64,000 bases of DNA from a virus, in UHGV virus genome UHGV-1351772, one strand, 5' to 3'. Shown here piece after piece: positions 3,681 to 11,337 of the stretch (position 1 is the first letter of the stretch; every line of letters starts with the position of its first letter). Position numbers and translations under genes: made by a program. Under the pieces are notes generated by a model that ran no database searches, was not told where the DNA came from, and saw only the letters and a program-made list of their open reading frames with translations.

Positions 3681-3756
3681 TGGCGGGGGTGGGAAGTTTC
3701 GAACTCCCAACCTTCGGTTTTGGAGACCGCTGCACCACCAATTGTGCTACACCCCC
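3681..3756 (-). tRNA. tRNA-Trp (anticodon CCA), 76 nt with encoded CCA end
   Basis: Hand-folded cloverleaf. Acceptor stem is GGGGGTG/CACCCCC and D stem is GCAC/GTGC with a GG in the loop. The anticodon loop is CT-CCA-AA. T stem is GGGAG/CTTCC with loop TTCGAAA, and the discriminator is G. There is one G-A mismatch at positions 27-43. From memory, the anticodon and T arms look close to E. coli tRNA-Trp. Confidence 0.9.
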
Positions 3757-4264: not shown

Positions 4265-4626
4265 GACAGATTTCCTAACTCATTGCCGACCTCCTGGTCA
4301 GCAGCTACCATCGAATTCGTGCAACGCGTAACATGTTCACGAATCGCTCGAGCCAAACCTTCACGAACGGCTACCAGGAGACACTCTCGATAGCTCGGAT
4401 AATGCGCAATAGGGCTAGGGATGTGTTCCACGCAATAACCATCGTGAACTTCCACCACTACCGTGATGTAAATCTCGACGGGTTGGTAAATCCGCACGCT
4501 CTTGATCAAATCAAGTAACGCTGGCTCCGTGCATCCCCAGTCCTCCGGGGCTTTTAACAGCACTGCCAACTCATCGAGCCTGTACTGAACATCCAATTCC
4601 ACGTTAGTGGTGTTTTTGGAATCCAT
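4261..4626 (-). CDS. hypothetical protein (121 aa; start moved to the ATG with a GGAG RBS)
   Basis: GGAGATTTTAAT-ATG at 4626. There is an ATGA overlap with the HslV-like gene. Confidence 0.6.
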   Translation of the reverse strand: MDSKNTTNVELDVQYRLDELAVLLKAPEDWGCTEPALLDLIKSVRIYQPVEIYITVVVEVHDGYCVEHIPSPIAHYPSYRECLLVAVREGLARAIREHVTRCTNSMVAADQEVGNELGNLS

Positions 4627-5486
4627 ATTAAAATCTCCTGTCGTGGTCTGTGTCACACCAACAGGAAATCCTGTAAAAAAATAATTCAGCTGCGTACCGG
4701 CGTTTCTCAACGGGAGTACGCACCCCTCTCGTCTTTGCGAGCCGTCAAGCTAGAGGACATCACACTGCCAGCGCTACCTGGAGCAGGGTCATTCGACGCA
4801 ACGTCGTAATTCGCATTTTGGCCGCACCTCTGGGAGCGTATCCCACCGTCGGCTGCCCGCAGGTAAGTTCTACGGACCTTTCGCCAACGTCGCTCCCAGA
4901 GGCTGCCACGGTTCACTCGGATTTTCTCATGTGGTCCACGCGTCACTGATAGCGCGGGTTCCCCAACACTCGTAAGTCGGGGAACGGTACCGAGCACCTG
5001 AACTCTGGGGATTCCAAAAATCCCTCGGGGTAAGTACGATTCGCAAATCGATTTTCAAACCCCATAGTAAAACAAACTCCAGTGTTAGGCTGAACGTTTT
5101 GTTTTTCCCAGTACACGGCGAAATAAATTCCATGCACTCGAAAAAACAACCCCCAAACCAACACCCGGTCAGGGGGCTTCGAGCTCTGCTGAATCTTCGC
5201 AGACAGAAATCGTGTTTGAGCTGTGAGCAGTAAACTCCTGAACTCCGAAAAATCTTCGTGGTTGGATTTGTAAATCATCCCACGCAAATCCTCCGAACAT
5301 ACCATAGGGTTTTAACGTTCGAAAAAGGGGAATGGGTTTTACCCCCCTCGGTCAGGTGTTCAGGGTAGACCCCCTACCCGATCCCCCAGGTGGGGATTTT
5401 ACCCTGGTGAATTACCCCGGGTTCGATTTTCGGATTTTCTGGAAAATACCGCTCACCGATCCCTACCCCCTCAGGGGGGTCAGACC

Positions 5487-5496
5487 GAGATCAGAT
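5487..5496 (+). repeat. left copy of the 10-bp direct repeat GAGATCAGAT
   Basis: Identical to 5718..5727. The two copies bracket the CG-block/A+T-core/CG-block unit. Confidence 0.9.
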
Positions 5497-5518
5497 CTCA
5501 TAATAAGGATCGCGCGCG

Positions 5519-5680
5519 TTTTATATATATTTATATATAATATATATTATATATAATAATTATTATATTAATAAATATATTAATATATTTATTTAAATAA
5601 ATAATTAAATAATACCTAAAGGTATTATTATTTTGATCCTAAAGGAATAATATATTTATAAATAAATATATTATACTATA
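5519..5680. repeat. A/T low-complexity core, about 93 percent A+T, with 5519-5614 being 96 nt of pure A/T
   Basis: Direct reading. It contains a perfect 24-nt palindrome at 5570-5593 (AATAAATATATTAATATATTTATT) and a hairpin AATACC-TAAA-GGTATT. It is bounded by CGCGCGCG (5511-5518) and by alternating Pu/Py sequence at 5676-5703 that includes an 18-bp perfect palindrome (5683-5700). Confidence 0.95.
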
Positions 5681-5717
5681 CGCGCGTGCGTACGCACGCG
5701 TATAAGGAAGAGATCTT

Positions 5718-5727
5718 GAGATCAGAT
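5718..5727 (+). repeat. right copy of the 10-bp direct repeat GAGATCAGAT
   Basis: Identical to 5487..5496. Confidence 0.9.
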
Positions 5728-6331
5728 TTTTGAGAGAGTTAAAAATTTAAGATCGATCCGAGAGACTTAGTGTCTCTCGAAGAGTATTAAAAAATTTAAA
5801 AGATCAAAAAACCAAAGCTAGAGAACTACTCAACCTGAATCTTCAGTGTGTGAAGATTCAGTAAGTTGATCAATCCAGCTGATCCGCTAGTACGCGAAGC
5901 GTGAATGTTTTTTTGATCGTCGCGGCGGCCGGTCCGCCGACCCGAGGGTGGGGTGGAACTGGTCGAGGGGAATGCCCCTCAGGCGCTCTCAATCGCGCTG
6001 TAACGAGTTAAACGGGGTTCTGGTACCCAAGTGTACCCCTTGAGGAGATTTTTGCGTCAAAATGCGTTCTAGAGCGTTTTACGATGGGGTGGGTTTTCGA
6101 CCCACTCAGGGATAGGGGTTGGCGTGACAGCTCGAACGACAAAATCGTGGTTTCATGGCGTTGAGTGAAAATAAATTCAAAACCCACAACCAAAAACACC
6201 CTCAAATTCTTCGTAGGAAGCTCTCTGACGAGATAAACGTGGGTAAGGGGTACGAACGTACCGCCTGGAAAGAAAAATGCGTTAGAATCGCTCTCAGCGC
6301 GTTTTTGATTTTTGGGCAAAAAAATAAAACG

Positions 6332-6351
6332 GGGGAGACTTCGGTCTCCCC
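6332..6351 (-). terminator. rho-independent terminator after CDS 6362..7486
   Basis: GGGGAGAC-TTCG-GTCTCCCC is followed on the minus strand by GTTTTATTTTTTT. Confidence 0.85.
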
Positions 6352-6361
6352 AGAATATTTT

Positions 6362-7486
6362 TTACAGAGTCGTCAGTTCTTTTGACGGATAGTACAGTTT
6401 CACATCGACCAAACTGTAACCGGTGGCGTAGAACACCTGATTTCCGACCGAAGCAATAAACCCTTCAGGGTCGATAACGTCAACCGAGAAATCGGAATCG
6501 AATAGCCAGGTTTCTTGTTCCCCTTCCCGTTCGAAAACGGCAGCGTAACGCCCGTATTCTGGGCCTCGGCGGAAACGAAACAGCGTTAATCCTGTCTCAC
6601 GTTCTAAGCCATAAATCACCCCATTTTCTTCGTAGATTTCAGCGCGATTACAGCGTGTAACCGTCAACAACGCAGGCCGTTGTGTCGGGATTGTTTTAAA
6701 CGGTGAAGGCCCATCGTATGTCGTTGAAACCCAATCACCGAGACTGTCTAACGCCAGTGCTCGATACGCGATAGGTGACTTGTAGTTACACAACCTGTTG
6801 CCCTCGGTGTACATCGTGTATTCGATGCGTAACGTAGTACCGATGATGTCGTTCAAACTCAGTTTGTAGTGCGCTAACTGGGCTTGTATACGACAGGACA
6901 GAATTGTACACAGGAAAGTGTGACCCTCTGTAGAACGGCACACAACTCCGTAATCGGTCACTGCCAGTAACGTGGCATCTGTTTTACGGACGGGTTCCAG
7001 GCGAAACACCTCATTTTCAGTTTCTACGAGGAACTGCGAAACCGCTTGGTTTCTGGATTTAGCTTTAATCGTATCGAACACATCACCCGCTTTTACGATT
7101 AACGGTTCTACCACGTTTACCTGAAACGGCAGCGGTTTAGTTGGGTATTGTCCCAACGTTGTAATCGTTACTGAGTTGAGTTCTGGGTCCGATGCGTCAG
7201 GATCACCAGACAACCAATACGTTAGCCATTTCGACAACGTCTGGGGAATGACGCGCGTGGTGTAAAACAGAATTTCGCCATGTAAACCTGCCTCTGCCAA
7301 TTCGCGTGCAAGAAACGAGTTGACCGCGTCGTAGGTACCGTTGCGCAAGATGTCCATACCCCCGACACGAACCAAATCACAAATTACGCCGTGTGGAAGA
7401 ACCCACATTTTGACGTTTTGATTTCGGTCGATGGTACCTTCGCGCAGCATTCTGTGCCAAACGGGTTTACGTAAGTAATTTCTCAT
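6362..7486 (-). CDS. hypothetical protein (374 aa)
   Basis: ATG is preceded by AAAGGAG. No motif recognised. Confidence 0.7.
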   Translation of the reverse strand: MRNYLRKPVWHRMLREGTIDRNQNVKMWVLPHGVICDLVRVGGMDILRNGTYDAVNSFLARELAEAGLHGEILFYTTRVIPQTLSKWLTYWLSGDPDASDPELNSVTITTLGQYPTKPLPFQVNVVEPLIVKAGDVFDTIKAKSRNQAVSQFLVETENEVFRLEPVRKTDATLLAVTDYGVVCRSTEGHTFLCTILSCRIQAQLAHYKLSLNDIIGTTLRIEYTMYTEGNRLCNYKSPIAYRALALDSLGDWVSTTYDGPSPFKTIPTQRPALLTVTRCNRAEIYEENGVIYGLERETGLTLFRFRRGPEYGRYAAVFEREGEQETWLFDSDFSVDVIDPEGFIASVGNQVFYATGYSLVDVKLYYPSKELTTL

Positions 7487-8992: not shown

Positions 8993-9232
8993 TCAATGGG
9001 GCCCTGACATTACCACGAGGTGTATAGAGTAGACCATATTTAGCGCATAGGTAGCTGACGAACCTGCTACCATCAGACCAAATACTGCAAATGCCTGTAC
9101 ATACCGTGTTTTTCGTAGTGGGAAACCTTGCGAACGTCCGTATTGTTTTATCGCTTGGTAACTCTCGCGGATCATTTTATACGTCGCTATCCACGAAAAG
9201 AACACAAGTAAATAGTAAATTGGAGCCATCAC
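8993..9232 (-). CDS. small membrane protein (79 aa, two hydrophobic segments)
   Basis: There is a 4-nt overlap with the terminase stop, which suggests translational coupling. Hydrophobic stretches are APIYYLLVFFSWIA and AFAVFGLMVAGSSATYAL. Confidence 0.55.
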   Translation of the reverse strand: MMAPIYYLLVFFSWIATYKMIRESYQAIKQYGRSQGFPLRKTRYVQAFAVFGLMVAGSSATYALNMVYSIHLVVMSGPH

Positions 9233-11337
9233 TTCATCCTCTGGCGTTGGATAAGCTCTCTTAAGCTTTCCATTGACGCCACGTTTTGTGTATCAGTGTT
9301 AAGTTGAGCAATGAGGGACTGGAGACGGTTACGAGCAGCCATTGCTTGAACCGGGTCTAATAACCCGTTTGTGGTTCGCACAAGACGCTCAATTTCCCCC
9401 ATCAGTTCCTGCTGTCGCGCCTCCTCCTCGAGTTGTAATTCCTCATCCACCCCTTCACGATTTTCGACTAAATTACGATTGCGCATCATCAATCGACTGT
9501 TGTTGATTTCATAATGCCCCAGGTTATTCCCAAGCAGCAATAACCACATCGCAAGTAACCAAGAAATCACGAGGTCGTCATGACCTGAAGCTTTGTGGTC
9601 AATACGACCATTTTTCTCCACGAGGTTAAGTATCTGGTCGATGAGTTCTCCGCAACGGAGTTTATCCGCGGATAAGCGCAACGCTGTGGTGAATACCTCA
9701 CCGTACAGTTTACGACGTTTTTCCTGGTCGGTTGAGAAACCGATATATTTACGGAATTTATTCCAGAACTTCTCAGCGTTACCAATAGGTCCACGGTGAT
9801 ACTCTTTGTAGAGATCGTCCGTACGTGAGTAGTCCTGAGTGATTCTCACAAATAAACGGCGATGTAAGTCCGTGACGCGAGACTGTAACTGCAGGATAAT
9901 TGCATCAGCCACAGACGAGCCAGTAGACCGTCGTTCCAGGATTAGTACCGTGTTAGGATATCGCACCATAAAATCCGCTAAATGAATCGCGAAAGAGATA
10001 ACGTTAGATTCGTTAACGGTTAATTTACCTGCATACTCTGCGGTCACAGAGTTAACAATAGACATGGCGATCGCGTCTCGACCCACCGCCTCAGAGGTAT
10101 CCAACCCGATGACGTGTCGGTCTTTGAGCTTCGTCATCATCTCCTCTTCGGTGTAGTACCAGTCGGTAACGTAGTTTTGTGGTGAAATATCTTTAAACAC
10201 AGCACGCATACGGGAAGCATTCATACGATCTGCATCTTCCGCTGAGAACGGCTTGTTCAGACCACCGGTAGTCCATTCACCCCCGAAGTCACGACGGATC
10301 TGGTCAGGGGTACCTTTGGCGTTCGCAATCATTGCCGCTAACTGCTCATCGCTGGTACCGAGCTGACGGTGGTTGTACTTCACGTAGAACATGATACGTG
10401 GGACTTCTGCCGTGGAGTTAGAACGGATGATATCAATGAGCTGTTTACGGGTTGGAATGTCGATATAGCGCTCATCCCACATAATCCCCGACGTCATCAG
10501 CTCGTACATGTACTTGCCTTCTTCCGTCGCTAAGTCACCAGGGGTTGTTGCGAATACGTTACCGTAAGGAACACCTTCCGCTTCGTTAATACGGCGAGCC
10601 GCTGTACCGGATGCCAGGGCTGCCGGTAGAATGTGGTGTACGTTTTTGGTAAAGGGGCCTTCGTCCGAGAACAGACGACCAGCGGTGAGTCCACGACCGA
10701 TACCGTTAGCAGATTCTGGGTCGTTTTGGCCGATACCCGTAATCAGTTTGTTACCCTGGGCTAAACACGCAAAAGTTTCGCGGTTATCTGGATCATCTGG
10801 ATGTGCTGGCCACAAGTAAGACGGTAGACCGTTACGTAGTTGCTTAAGTTTGTTAATGGTTTCTTCACGCAGTGCCGGTCCTTTTGTGATAAGAATCGTA
10901 CGAGAGTTTTCCAGAAACCGAATTAACCACAATAGTAATCCGCTCATCCCGACGGTTTTACCATGCTGACGGAGGAACTCGACGGCGGCGTCGATGTTGT
11001 TGAAGAAAATCCAATACATCGAAAAGTTACCACGGTCGATACGGAACGGCGACCCGTATTTCATACCGTCCGCAGGTACCCTGACGCACTCTCGAAACCA
11101 GTACCAAGGGTTTTCAGCACACTCGATGGCGATATACGCTTTCTGCTCGTCCGTTAGGTTTTCGTCAAAAGGATCGACCCCTTGCAGTAAAGGGTTATGT
11201 AAGGCGAGATGAATATAGTAGTGCTTTACACCCAGCTTTTTTAGGATATTTGCAAACTTGATAAACGATTTGTTTGTGGTTTTATCGTCAACAATAGCGC
11301 CTGGATAATAACGCCAGTCCGATTCACGTAGTATCAT
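9229..11337 (-). CDS. terminase large subunit (702 aa)
   Basis: Walker A-like LRQHGKT (compare T4 gp17 SRQLGKT) and Walker B-like RLFSDE. The size and a GAGGAG RBS fit. Confidence 0.8.
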   Translation of the reverse strand: MILRESDWRYYPGAIVDDKTTNKSFIKFANILKKLGVKHYYIHLALHNPLLQGVDPFDENLTDEQKAYIAIECAENPWYWFRECVRVPADGMKYGSPFRIDRGNFSMYWIFFNNIDAAVEFLRQHGKTVGMSGLLLWLIRFLENSRTILITKGPALREETINKLKQLRNGLPSYLWPAHPDDPDNRETFACLAQGNKLITGIGQNDPESANGIGRGLTAGRLFSDEGPFTKNVHHILPAALASGTAARRINEAEGVPYGNVFATTPGDLATEEGKYMYELMTSGIMWDERYIDIPTRKQLIDIIRSNSTAEVPRIMFYVKYNHRQLGTSDEQLAAMIANAKGTPDQIRRDFGGEWTTGGLNKPFSAEDADRMNASRMRAVFKDISPQNYVTDWYYTEEEMMTKLKDRHVIGLDTSEAVGRDAIAMSIVNSVTAEYAGKLTVNESNVISFAIHLADFMVRYPNTVLILERRSTGSSVADAIILQLQSRVTDLHRRLFVRITQDYSRTDDLYKEYHRGPIGNAEKFWNKFRKYIGFSTDQEKRRKLYGEVFTTALRLSADKLRCGELIDQILNLVEKNGRIDHKASGHDDLVISWLLAMWLLLLGNNLGHYEINNSRLMMRNRNLVENREGVDEELQLEEEARQQELMGEIERLVRTTNGLLDPVQAMAARNRLQSLIAQLNTDTQNVASMESLRELIQRQRMK

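What the first reader, a model, noticed from the sequence alone, without database searches (positions are those of the whole stretch)
5489..5918. Cluster of 12 GATC sites with iteron-like repeats and long hairpins next to the A/T core
GATC occurs at 5489, 5494, 5508, 5635, 5712, 5720, 5751, 5755, 5802, 5868, 5881 and 5915. That is 12 in about 430 bp, against 1-2 expected for a random tetramer. Several are tandem (GAGATCAGATC, GATCGATC). The imperfect repeat TTAAAAA(A)TTTAA(AA)GATC appears twice (5739-5754, 5787-5805). Hairpins lie at 5759-5779 and 5835-5861. In enterobacteria, GATC clustering beside an A/T-rich element is the hallmark of Dam/SeqA-controlled origins such as oriC. I found no convincing DnaA box.
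Basis: partly seen in the sequence, partly recalled or inferred. Interest (0 to 1): 0.6.

Follow-up and report, generated by a model that had tools for sequence, protein, structure and literature searches.

The report
Conserved GATC-studded A/T element, jumbo phage
A one-of-a-kind non-coding DNA element (a pure A/T stretch framed by G/C clamps, a dozen GATC sites and several hairpins) is conserved across five genera of SPN3US-like giant phages that also carry their own GATC methylase. It is the best current candidate for their unknown replication origin, or otherwise their DNA-packaging start site.

Summary
There are 12 GATC at 5489-5918 (14 in 600 bp) against 1.3 expected, and this is the only such cluster in the window. 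It abuts the only ~98% A/T stretch.

The window is a ~225-kb jumbo phage distantly related to Salmonella phage SPN3US. The same element, with the same module order and synteny, occurs in five genera. GATC is the most enriched non-A/T tetramer in 12 of 14 phages. The sites keep their positions while their flanks vary, and the hairpin stems covary.

In the complete SPN3US genome, GATC is depleted overall. The element is still both the top GATC cluster and the A/T-richest spot.

These phages encode a full-length E. coli Dam orthologue. The window's 99% twin has it too; the gene lies outside the window.

- There are no DnaA boxes.
- The resemblance to the oriC 13-mer is at chance level.
- No SeqA or MutH homologue was found.
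- The "iterons" are two copies that an 89% relative has already lost.

Best reading: a phage-autonomous, Dam-marked unwinding element, that is, a replication origin (~0.45). Rivals are a P1-like methylation-gated pac site (~0.2) and an RNA or promoter region (~0.15). None of these functions is demonstrated, and I found no published description.

The parts
5458..5518 (.). Left GATC module. It contains GATC 5458, the C/G hairpin CCCCCTCAGGGGGG (5466-5479), the palindrome GAGATCaGATCTC (5487-5499; GATC at 5489 and 5494), the conserved TAATAAGGATC (GATC 5508) and the CGCGCGCG clamp (5511-5518).
   Evidence: GATCnnGATCTC(n)TAATAAGGATC(n)CGCG is conserved in the window genus, Seoulvirus and Erskinevirus, and in part in Machinavirus and Wellingtonvirus.
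5519..5680 (.). A/T core, up to 98% A+T over 100 bp. It is the unique A/T maximum of the window. Its TA-repeat part varies in length between close relatives.
   Evidence: In SPN3US the homologous core is the A/T-richest 100 bp of the whole 240-kb genome (95% against 74% for the next). Indels between the 99% and 89% relatives are shown.
5608..5629 (.). Palindrome AATAATACC-TAAA-GGTATTATT inside the core.
   Evidence: As DNA it forms a 9-bp stem with z = -2.6. It is identical in Seoulvirus and replaced by other palindromes at the same place in other genera: ATATCTAAAGATAT x2 in Erskinevirus, and TACTACTACGTAGTAGTA plus ATATCCCTACGGGATAT in SPAsTU and SNUABM29.
5635..5646 (.). GATCCTnnAGGA, the most widely conserved motif of the element.
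   Evidence: It is present once in each of the 14 relatives examined, including those that have lost most other GATC sites.
5681..5710 (.). Right clamp: an alternating purine-pyrimidine CG/CA tract forming an imperfect palindrome (CGCGCGTGCGTACGCACGCG), followed by the conserved GTATAAGGAAG.
   Evidence: An equivalent tract is present in every relative. Its sequence varies but its alternating character is kept.
5710..5727 (.). GATC pair (5712 and 5720) within GAGATCTTGAGATCAGAT. GAGATCAGAT is a 10-nt direct repeat of 5487-5496, so the two copies bracket the core.
   Evidence: repeat family D5. A pair of GATC sites at this position, with variable spacing (7-13 nt) and variable flanks, occurs in Seoulvirus, Erskinevirus, SPAsTU, SNUABM29 and Wellington.
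5733..5805 (.). Hairpin CGAGAGAC-ttagt-GTCTCTCG (5759-5779) flanked by two copies of GAG(A/T)(G/A)TTAAAAA(A)TTTAA(AA)GATC. GATC sites at 5751, 5755 and 5802.
   Evidence: The second repeat copy is absent in IMG224k and in the two 'plasmid' relatives. Other genera have a single TTTTAAAAAGAAATTTT block here.
5835..5861 (.). Hairpin H4, CTGAATCTTCA-gtgtg-TGAAGATTCAG, followed by GATC at 5868 and 5881.
   Evidence: z = -7.5. At the same position six different, fully complementary stems are found across genera: GTAACCGACA/TGTCGGTTAC, GTATCCGACA/TGTCGGATAC, GTAATTCGCA/TGCGAATTAC, GACAAAC/GTTTGTC, GAGAGAC/GTCTCTC.
5892..5928 (.). Mini-hairpin ACGC-GAA-GCGT (5892-5902), then the conserved TTGATCGTCGCGGCGG (5913-5928; GATC 5915).
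   Evidence: The stem covaries (GCAC-GAA-GTGC, CCGC-GAA-GCGG, GCGC-AA-GCGC). TGATCG(T/G)CG is conserved in 13 of 14 relatives.
6332..6351 (.). Strong bidirectional terminator-like hairpin. It closes the upstream 374-aa gene, so that the element lies outside that transcription unit.
6362..7486 (-). Conserved neighbouring gene (374 aa, PHROG 8136, no Pfam family). Its predicted fold resembles ATP-dependent DNA ligases. Its own phage-type promoter motif lies at about 7536 (-).

Best explanation
The region 5458-5928 is a conserved cis-acting DNA element of SPN3US-like jumbo phages, and I think it most likely serves as their replication origin.

The proposed mechanism has four parts, all inferred:
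- The ~160-bp, almost pure A/T core is the place where the duplex opens.
- The alternating CG/CA tracts on both sides act as clamps that confine melting or absorb supercoiling.
- The GATC sites clustered on both flanks are methylated by the phage's own Dam-family methyltransferase. Their methylation state (full, hemi or none) marks the element and eases or gates opening and re-use. This is analogous to GATC clusters in E. coli oriC, P1 oriR and Vibrio ori2.
- The small palindromes in and beside the core are binding sites or extruded hairpins for a still unknown phage initiator or primosome.

Shown here: the anatomy of the element, its uniqueness, its conservation, selection on GATC itself, the presence of a phage Dam orthologue, and the absence of host-type DnaA boxes.

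Inferred only: that unwinding and initiation happen here, that the phage Dam methylates these sites, and that methylation matters.
For: 1. Twelve to 14 GATC against 1.3-1.7 expected, P about 1e-8.
2. The element is unique. It is the only GATC cluster and the only >90% A/T stretch in the window. In the complete SPN3US genome it is the top GATC window (10 against 6 for the next) although GATC is depleted genome-wide (489 observed against 862 expected). It is also the top A/T window there (95% against 74%).
3. The same ordered modules, in the same synteny, occur in five genera whose neighbouring proteins are only 42-62% identical to the window's. Unconstrained DNA would not align at that distance.
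4. GATC is the most enriched non-A/T tetramer in 12 of 14 phages. The sites keep their positions while flanks and spacings vary. This points to a reader of bare GATC or of its methylation.
5. A Dam orthologue is present in all these genera and in the window's 99% twin. It matches E. coli Dam 2G1P over its full length at E = 1.4e-62 and TIGR00571 at 240 bits. The CRYN and FNVP motifs and the N-terminal IKW lysine are kept.
6. The core varies in length by TA-repeat indels between near-identical relatives, while its A/T content and flanks are kept. This is what one expects of an unwinding region rather than a spaced protein site.
7. Hairpin stems covary with perfect Watson-Crick pairing and show no strand preference. 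That fits DNA-level structures.
8. No site of the phage's own promoter motif lies in the element, and a terminator insulates it.
9. The neighbouring gene has a DNA-ligase-like fold. This is weak contextual support.
10. The Derbicusvirus relatives lack the GNAT and gp160-like genes of the Dam cassette and show no Dam hit among the top 60. They also lack the GATC cluster.
Against: - There are no functional data of any kind. I found no paper on an origin in SPN3US- or phiKZ-like phages.
- No initiator gene and no true iterons were identified.
- Cumulative GC skew is monotonic and follows gene orientation, so it does not mark the site.
- Two Machinavirus-lineage phages keep the architecture and the Dam gene but have only 2-4 GATC. 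A dense cluster is therefore not indispensable.
- The absence of Dam in Derbicusvirus was not tested directly.
- The GATC specificity of the phage enzyme is inferred from homology.
- T4-like and many jumbo phages rely largely on recombination-dependent replication, so a single origin need not exist.
Confidence: 0.45

Rival explanations
1. The element is a packaging initiation (pac) site gated by methylation, as in phage P1. The terminase would recognise the GATC clusters on both sides of a central region and cut only when the phage Dam has fully methylated them, starting a headful packaging series.
For: - The geometry resembles P1 pac as I recall it: GATC-containing elements at both ends of a ~160-bp site, cleavage dependent on Dam, and a phage-encoded Dam.
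- The phage does encode a Dam.
- The element lies 3.5-6 kb from the large terminase gene in every relative.
- The genomes are reported as circularly permuted or headful (PMC6614189; PMC5000459).
- Several GenBank records and IMG/VR contigs start or end in the core.
Against: - There is no P1-type hexamer. Only 2 of 13 sites fit TGATC(A/G) (sequence).
- The element is intergenic and is separated from terL by two genes, one of them on the other strand, rather than lying inside or next to a terminase gene.
- phiKZ-type giant phages are reported without detectable termini or pac signal (PMC12390700).
- Record starts are arbitrary or set by homology for permuted genomes (PMC5000459).
- Contig breaks in a 160-200-bp TA repeat are expected assembly artefacts. 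Two closed circular assemblies run straight through the core.
- A ~100% A/T core of variable length is not a known feature of pac sites.
Confidence: 0.2
2. The element is a transcription or RNA element. It could be a promoter or regulatory region for the downstream operon (ORF149, HslV-like peptidase, tRNA-Trp), or a gene for a structured non-coding RNA whose hairpins are RNA stems. In that case the GATC sites would be Dam-sensitive regulatory sites, as in pap, agn43 or Mu mom.
For: - The downstream genes on the minus strand need a promoter, and none of the recognised class lies between 7536 and 2028.
- Early promoters of phiKZ-like phages are short A/T-rich motifs (PMC7598289).
- Hairpin stems covary.
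- The adjacent left flank (about 4790-4935, minus strand) does look like a structured RNA, with G-U pairs and 7 compensatory pairs.
Against: - No site of the phage promoter motif lies in the element on either strand, although there are 23 sites in SPN3US and 5 in the window.
- Sigma-70-like matches are at chance level (3 against 2.6).
- There is no Rfam match, even at E = 1.
- Folding energies and G-U counts show no strand preference.
- Known Dam-regulated promoters use 2-3 GATC sites, not 8-14.
- A TA-repeat core of variable length is not a conserved promoter motif.
Confidence: 0.15
3. The element is some other architectural or maintenance site, for example a loading or anchoring site for a phage SMC-like or partition-like protein. 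It could also be a recombination hot spot, or a maintenance site for a plasmid-like carrier state.
For: - The element is a unique site in the genome.
- SPN3US encodes an SMC-domain protein.
- Close relatives of the window phage are deposited as closed circular 222-kb 'plasmids' of an E. coli and an Enterobacter isolate.
Against: - No parS-like repeats and no partition genes lie next to it.
- Nothing specific ties GATC or an A/T core to these functions.
- The 'plasmid' records may simply be phage DNA co-purified with the culture.
Confidence: 0.08

Closest known systems
E. coli oriC (DnaA/Dam/SeqA-controlled chromosomal origin)
   Same: It has a dense GATC cluster (11 in 232 bp in L028) on and beside an A/T-rich unwinding region, and it is the single such site of its replicon.
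   Different: - The phage element has no DnaA boxes.
- Its resemblance to the 13-mer is at chance level.
- It has no dnaA/mioC/gidA context.
- Its core is far longer and purer in A/T, and is framed by alternating CG tracts and covarying hairpins.
- The methylase is phage-encoded, and no SeqA homologue was found.
Phage P1 pac site (Dam-dependent pacase cleavage site)
   Same: GATC sites are grouped on both sides of a ~160-bp centre, in a phage that encodes its own Dam and packages by headful.
   Different: - The phage element has no TGATC(A/G) hexamer consensus.
- It does not lie within a terminase gene.
- Its centre is an A/T repeat rather than an IHF site.
- This comparison rests on my memory of the P1 literature and was not tested against the P1 sequence.
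P1 oriR and Vibrio cholerae ori2 (origins whose repeats contain GATC and need Dam methylation)
   Same: GATC sites inside origin repeats couple initiation to methylation.
   Different: Those origins have clear repeated 7-mers or 11/12-mers and 19-bp iterons bound by RepA or RctB.
T7 primary origin and T4 oriF/oriG (promoter plus downstream A/T-rich unwinding element)
   Same: They are phage-autonomous origins built around an A/T-rich unwinding element, without host DnaA.
   Different: They depend on an identifiable phage promoter just upstream. No site of the phage's promoter motif is present here, and they have no GATC cluster.

Membership tests
oriC-type (DnaA-dependent) origin | A cluster of DnaA boxes (TTATCCACA or TTWTNCACA) | tested here: not met
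   There is no match with 1 mismatch or fewer in 5200-6200, and only one with 2 mismatches against a window background of 3.8 per kb.
oriC-type (DnaA-dependent) origin | A/T-rich 13-mers (GATCTnTTnTTTT) homologous to those of oriC | tested here: not met
   The best local alignment to oriC (GATCTC-T/ATAATAAGGATC) scores 23-24. That score is reached by 203 of 500 and 99 of 500 GATC-preserving shuffles.
oriC-type (DnaA-dependent) origin | A GATC cluster on or beside an A/T-rich unwinding region | tested here: met
Dam/SeqA-sequestered locus | A Dam methylase acting on the sites | tested here: inconclusive
   A phage-encoded Dam orthologue is present in the lineage, with E = 1.4e-62 to EcoDam and TIGR00571 above its cutoff. 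Hosts are Enterobacterales. Methylation of these particular sites cannot be read from sequence.
Dam/SeqA-sequestered locus | A SeqA-like reader of hemimethylated GATC available to the phage | tested here: not met
   tblastn of E. coli SeqA and MutH against SPN3US and the window gives only E > 0.8. The Dam-adjacent gp160-like protein shows no similarity to either. Whether host SeqA has access cannot be tested here.
Iteron-type origin (P1 oriR, Vibrio ori2, plasmid theta origins) | Three or more directly repeated 11-22-bp iterons, conserved among relatives, with an adjacent initiator gene | tested here: not met
   The only candidates are a 2-copy 16-19-nt repeat that the 89% relatives have lost, and a 10-nt repeat GAGATCAGAT x2. 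The flanking genes match no Rep family.
P1-type pac site | TGATC(A/G) hexamers grouped at both ends of the site | tested here: not met
   The GATC sites are grouped on both sides, but only 2 of 13 fit the hexamer. The flanks share no consensus.
P1-type pac site | Terminase cleavage at the site, with virion DNA ends mapping there | not testable with these tools
   This needs read-start or end mapping of virion DNA. Contig and record ends at the core are ambiguous. Two closed circular assemblies span the core.
Transcription-primed phage origin (T7, T4 oriF/G) | A phage promoter immediately upstream of the unwinding element | tested here: inconclusive
   No site of the one recognisable phage promoter motif lies in the element. 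Other promoter classes of these phages are not defined.
Known structured RNA family | A match to an Rfam covariance model | tested here: not met
   There is no hit in 4600-6400 apart from two sub-threshold chance matches outside the element.

The most novel reading that the evidence does not exclude
SPN3US-like giant phages may carry a self-contained epigenetic switch for genome replication or packaging. Their own Dam methylase would write, and an unknown phage factor would read, a GATC-studded unwinding element. My background knowledge, not tested here, is that these phages replicate inside a protein 'nucleus' that excludes host factors. If so, the element would be the first defined origin, or pac site, of a nucleus-forming jumbo phage, and it would work without host DnaA or SeqA. 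It would also give phage Dam a role other than anti-restriction in a phage whose DNA is already shielded.
Probability: 0.3. Interest if true: 0.8.

Novelty: new variant of a known kind. Interest (0 to 1): 0.62.

Why it matters
In the library I could search, no replication origin or packaging signal is described for SPN3US- or phiKZ-like giant phages. One paper reports that Ori-Finder gives only low-reliability predictions for such phages.

This element is a single, sharply defined and deeply conserved candidate, which makes the question directly testable. Useful experiments are marker-frequency sequencing, ori-trap or pac-trap plasmids, 6mA mapping, and Dam or GATC mutants.

A defined origin or pac site would help in engineering these phages for therapy. 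It would also help explain how replication is started and timed inside a phage-built compartment, and why phages that are already protected from restriction enzymes keep a Dam methylase.

Tried and rejected
- **Homology to oriC.** I fetched E. coli oriC and aligned it. The GATCTCTTATTAGGATC-like match is not better than GATC-preserving shuffles.
- **DnaA boxes.** None found.
- **Iterons.** The two-copy repeat is not conserved.
- **Phage SeqA or MutH.** No tblastn hit.
- **The gene after Dam (gp160-like) as a GATC reader.** It has no Pfam, PDB, SeqA or MutH similarity. The AF2 model was too poor to search (pLDDT 54).
- **GC skew on the whole SPN3US genome.** It is monotonic and driven by gene strand, so uninformative.
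- **GenBank records starting at the element as evidence of physical ends.** Base 1 is arbitrary for permuted genomes. Contig breaks in TA repeats are expected, and two closed circles span the core.
- **Rfam.** Nothing at the gathering threshold or at E <= 1.
- **Sigma-70 promoter scan.** At chance level.
- **Phage promoter motif.** I discovered the motif and scanned for it; there is no site in the element. k-mer motif discovery in the window alone was uninformative.
- **Strand of folding from G-U pairs.** No preference.
- **Protelomerase-type tel site.** I considered this because of TATACGCG...CGTATA. I rejected it because the palindromes are imperfect and variable and the genomes are circularly permuted.
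- **IMG/VR scan with TTTTAAAAGATCCTG.** Mostly chance matches. Protein-anchored scans returned few loci.
- **Plasmid database search for a related origin.** It returned only a relative of the phage itself.
Full report
**What the window is**

The region has no near-identical match among 50,697 GenBank phage records. Sensitive blastn hits the A/T core of Salmonella phage SPN3US and its relatives (Seoulvirus) and of Erwinia phages Asesino and phiEaH2.

Gene order around the finding matches those phages. From left to right it reads: tRNA-Trp (3681-3756), an HslV-like peptidase, about 1.65 kb without convincing genes, a 374-aa gene (6362-7486, minus strand), a 458-aa gene on the other strand, a 79-aa gene, and the large terminase (9229-11337).

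The neighbouring 374-aa protein is 62% identical to that of phiEaH2 and 55% to that of SPN3US. IMG/VR holds ~225-kb contigs whose protein is 99% and 89% identical.

The window is therefore part of a ~225-kb jumbo phage of a genus not represented in the phage collection searched here. It belongs to the SPN3US group of phiKZ-related phages that carry multisubunit RNA polymerases (SPN3US annotation). That this group forms a phage nucleus is my background knowledge and was not tested here.

**Check of the observation**

- Every GATC coordinate is right. Two further sites lie at 5380 and 5458.
- With 194 GATC in 64 kb, 1.3 are expected in 430 bp. P(>=12) is 1.5e-8, about 2e-6 after correcting for all windows. 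The next best 430-bp window has 6.
- The hairpins at 5759-5779 and 5835-5861 fold as DNA with z = -4.2 and -7.5.
- The two TTAAAAA(A)TTTAA(AA)GATC copies exist.
- The A/T core next to the cluster (5519-5680) reaches 98% A+T over 100 bp, against 75% for the next richest place in the window.

**Anatomy**

Reading the plus strand, the element contains:
- a C/G hairpin;
- the palindrome GAGATCaGATCTC;
- TAATAAGGATC, then a CGCGCGCG clamp;
- the A/T core, which holds the palindrome AATAATACC-TAAA-GGTATTATT (5608-5629) and GATCCTAAAGGA (5635-5646);
- a second clamp of alternating CG/CA (5681-5700), followed by GTATAAGGAAG;
- a GATC pair (5712, 5720) within a 10-nt repeat of the left-hand GAGATCAGAT;
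- a hairpin flanked by the two A/T-rich repeats;
- the long hairpin H4 (5835-5861), then two more GATC sites;
- a GAA-loop mini-hairpin ACGCGAAGCGT (5892-5902);
- the block TTGATCGTCGCGGCGG (5913-5928).

**Conservation**

I collected the homologous non-coding region from 14 phages:
- the window genus (three sequences, plus two more found later);
- Seoulvirus (MET_P1, SPN3US);
- SPAsTU and SNUABM29;
- Erskinevirus (phiEaH2, Asesino);
- the Machinavirus lineage (Huxley, SNUABM9, Caitlin and a 237-kb IMG contig);
- Wellingtonvirus (Wellington, SNUABM11).

All show the same order of modules, downstream of the 374-aa gene. GATCCTnnAGGA occurs exactly once in every one.

The palindromes inside the core sit at the same place but differ in sequence between genera. 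Hairpin H4 has six different, fully complementary stems, and the mini-hairpin stem also covaries.

The TA-repeat part of the core differs in length even between relatives whose flanks are nearly identical.

In Derbicusvirus (Phobos, Derbicus, CR5) I could not recognise the architecture.

**GATC itself is selected**

Within 600 bp centred on the element, GATC is the most enriched tetramer that is not pure A/T in 12 of 14 phages. The enrichment is 6.6-16.6 fold, with P between 4e-5 and 4e-10. The exceptions are SNUABM9 (2 sites) and Caitlin (4).

The sites occupy conserved positions, but the bases around them and the spacing within pairs change. The conserved unit is therefore the bare tetranucleotide. 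That is what a methylase, or a reader of methylation state, would select for.

In the complete SPN3US genome (fetched in five pieces):
- GATC is under-represented, with 489 observed against 862 expected from dinucleotides;
- the element still holds the densest cluster of the genome (10 in 450 bp; next 6);
- the element is also the A/T-richest 100 bp (95%; next 74%).

It is a single-copy landmark.

**A phage Dam**

SPN3US gp161 is a D12-class N6-adenine methyltransferase (PF02086, E = 2.5e-52). Orthologues are present in Seoulvirus, Erskinevirus, Wellingtonvirus and Machinavirus. They are also present in four IMG/VR contigs of the window genus, including the 99% twin. The gene is not inside the 64-kb window.

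The window-genus protein aligns with E. coli Dam over its whole length:
- 2G1P at E = 1.4e-62, which is better than the matches to DpnM or T4 Dam, both GATC enzymes;
- TIGR00571 at 240 bits against a cutoff of 115;
- the GYNGxCRYN and FNVP segments are kept;
- from the upstream ATG, the N-terminus reads MRKPIIKWMGGK, like FLKWAGGK of EcoDam.

GATC specificity is thus likely, but it is inferred.

The gene sits in a conserved cassette of a GNAT acetyltransferase, Dam and a 257-278-aa protein of unknown function. The two partner genes are absent from all Derbicusvirus records. Dam shows no Derbicusvirus hit among the 60 best, which reach down to 44% identity. The Derbicusvirus loci sampled have only 0.3-0.9 GATC per kb and no cluster.

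This natural comparison links the cluster to the phage methylase. The link is not absolute, because SNUABM9 and Caitlin have Dam but few sites.

**What it is not**

- There are no DnaA boxes.
- The similarity of the left module to the oriC 13-mer region, which looked striking, is matched by 20-40% of shuffles that keep the GATC sites in place.
- The 'iterons' are two copies, and relatives with 89% protein identity have already lost one.
- No SeqA or MutH homologue is detectable in SPN3US or in the window.
- There is no Rfam family.
- Sigma-70-like promoter matches are at chance level.
- SPN3US has a clear strand-specific promoter-like motif, aaaNatttcaGATA(T/G)ATATTA(C/T)cTAGGTGAG. It has 23 sites, all on one strand. 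The window has five, all on the minus strand, one of them in front of the 374-aa gene. None lies in the element.
- A strong terminator hairpin at 6332-6351 separates the element from that gene.
- The hairpins fold equally well on both strands, with similar numbers of G-T pairs. Nothing therefore points to one transcribed strand.
- Cumulative GC skew follows gene orientation and is uninformative.

**Origin or pac?**

Both are unique cis sites. For both there is a precedent of Dam-dependent GATC clusters in a phage with its own Dam (P1).

In favour of an origin:
- the very long, nearly pure A/T core, whose length drifts while its composition is kept;
- the GC clamps;
- the battery of DNA hairpins;
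- the intergenic position, insulated from transcription;
- reports that giant phages of this type show no defined termini and are circularly permuted.

In favour of pac:
- the two-sided arrangement of the GATC groups;
- the constant, though not close, linkage to the terminase gene;
- the number of assemblies that break in the core.

The assembly breaks are weak evidence. A TA repeat of 160-200 bp is a classic assembly breakpoint, base 1 of such records is chosen by convention, and two closed circular assemblies run through the core.

I put the origin reading at about 0.45, pac at 0.2, an RNA/regulatory role at 0.15 and other architectural roles at about 0.08. The remainder is left for something not thought of.

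**Context genes**

**Literature**

Searches for SPN3US or phiKZ together with origin of replication, genome termini, GATC, AT-rich and adenine methylase found no description of this element. The phage Dam is mentioned only as a possible defence against restriction.

**Verdict**

It is a deeply conserved, single-copy, GATC-studded unwinding-type element in a phage lineage that carries its own Dam.

It works like, but is not a member of, the oriC, P1 oriR or P1 pac families. Its function is unproven. It is a well-defined, testable candidate for the unknown origin, or pac site, of these giant phages.

Noticed in passing
window 4790-4935, minus strand (homologues at L001 5243-5403, L002 8455-8608, L004 8749-8909, L005 9269-9431): There is a highly conserved non-coding stretch between the element and the downstream ORF149/HslV/tRNA-Trp genes, with the blocks ACCGTGGCAGC, CGTTGAACTTACCTCCGG, GGCCAAAA and GAATTCGGCGTTGCGTCGA. 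RNAalifold predicts a long-range helix of 28 pairs. Seven pairs have compensatory changes, and G-U pairs occur on this strand. It is probably a structured RNA or a 5' leader. It has no Rfam match.
   Followed up: partly
window 2028, 7536, 22331, 52633, 61749 (all minus strand); SPN3US, 23 sites all on the plus strand: There is a strand-specific promoter-like motif, aaaNatttcaGATA(T/G)ATATTA(C/T)cTAGGTGAGa, in front of genes. It is probably one promoter class of the phage's own RNA polymerases. I did not find it described for SPN3US.
   Followed up: partly
L162 45846-48482 (SPN3US gp162-gp160); L192 498-3065 (window genus): The Dam gene lies in a conserved three-gene cassette: GNAT acetyltransferase, Dam, and a 257-278-aa protein of unknown function whose start overlaps or abuts the Dam stop. 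The unknown protein and the GNAT are absent from Derbicusvirus. The unknown protein has no Pfam or PDB match, and its AF2 model is poor.
   Followed up: partly
[not shown]
   Followed up: partly
L269 (NZ_CP134650.1, Enterobacter ludwigii, 222,441 bp) and L270 (NZ_CP173450.1, E. coli 98232, 221,873 bp): Close relatives of the window phage (83-86% DNA identity at the element) are deposited in RefSeq as closed circular 'plasmids' of bacterial isolates. Proteins 94-99% identical are labelled Shigella flexneri and Shigella sonnei, and some clusters have 300-400 member sequences in Logan assemblies. This could reflect a carrier state, or phage DNA co-purified with cultures.
   Followed up: partly
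L149 and L151 (contig ends), L016 (contig start); GenBank SPN3US, EC001, Lh1B, JN03, SPFM2, Proteus phage 7: Many assemblies and records begin or end inside or right beside the A/T core. This is most simply an assembly break in a TA repeat or a base-1 convention. It would also fit a real DNA end.
   Followed up: partly
window 5307-5317, 5334-5344, 5394-5404: There are three copies of an 11-mer, GG(G/A)TTTTA(A/C)C(G/C), spaced 27 and 60 nt apart, just left of the GATC cluster (repeat family D2). I did not check whether it is conserved in other genera.
   Followed up: no
SPN3US whole genome (L161-L165); Derbicusvirus loci L158-L160: GATC is under-represented in SPN3US (489 observed against 862 expected from dinucleotides). 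It is rarer still in the sampled Derbicusvirus DNA (2-7 sites in 7-8 kb). The window is only mildly depleted (194 against 221).
   Followed up: partly
Derbicusvirus loci L158-L160, downstream of the 374-aa gene: In place of the element these phages have a different conserved non-coding region. It contains CCCCCCTTGATCCCCCCTT, a hairpin GGTATCCCttggtGGGATACC, and a 77-79% A/T stretch. It may be a diverged counterpart.
   Followed up: no
window 6332-6351: There is a perfect 8-bp G/C-rich hairpin with T-runs on both strands. It is a bidirectional terminator-like site after the 374-aa gene.
   Followed up: no
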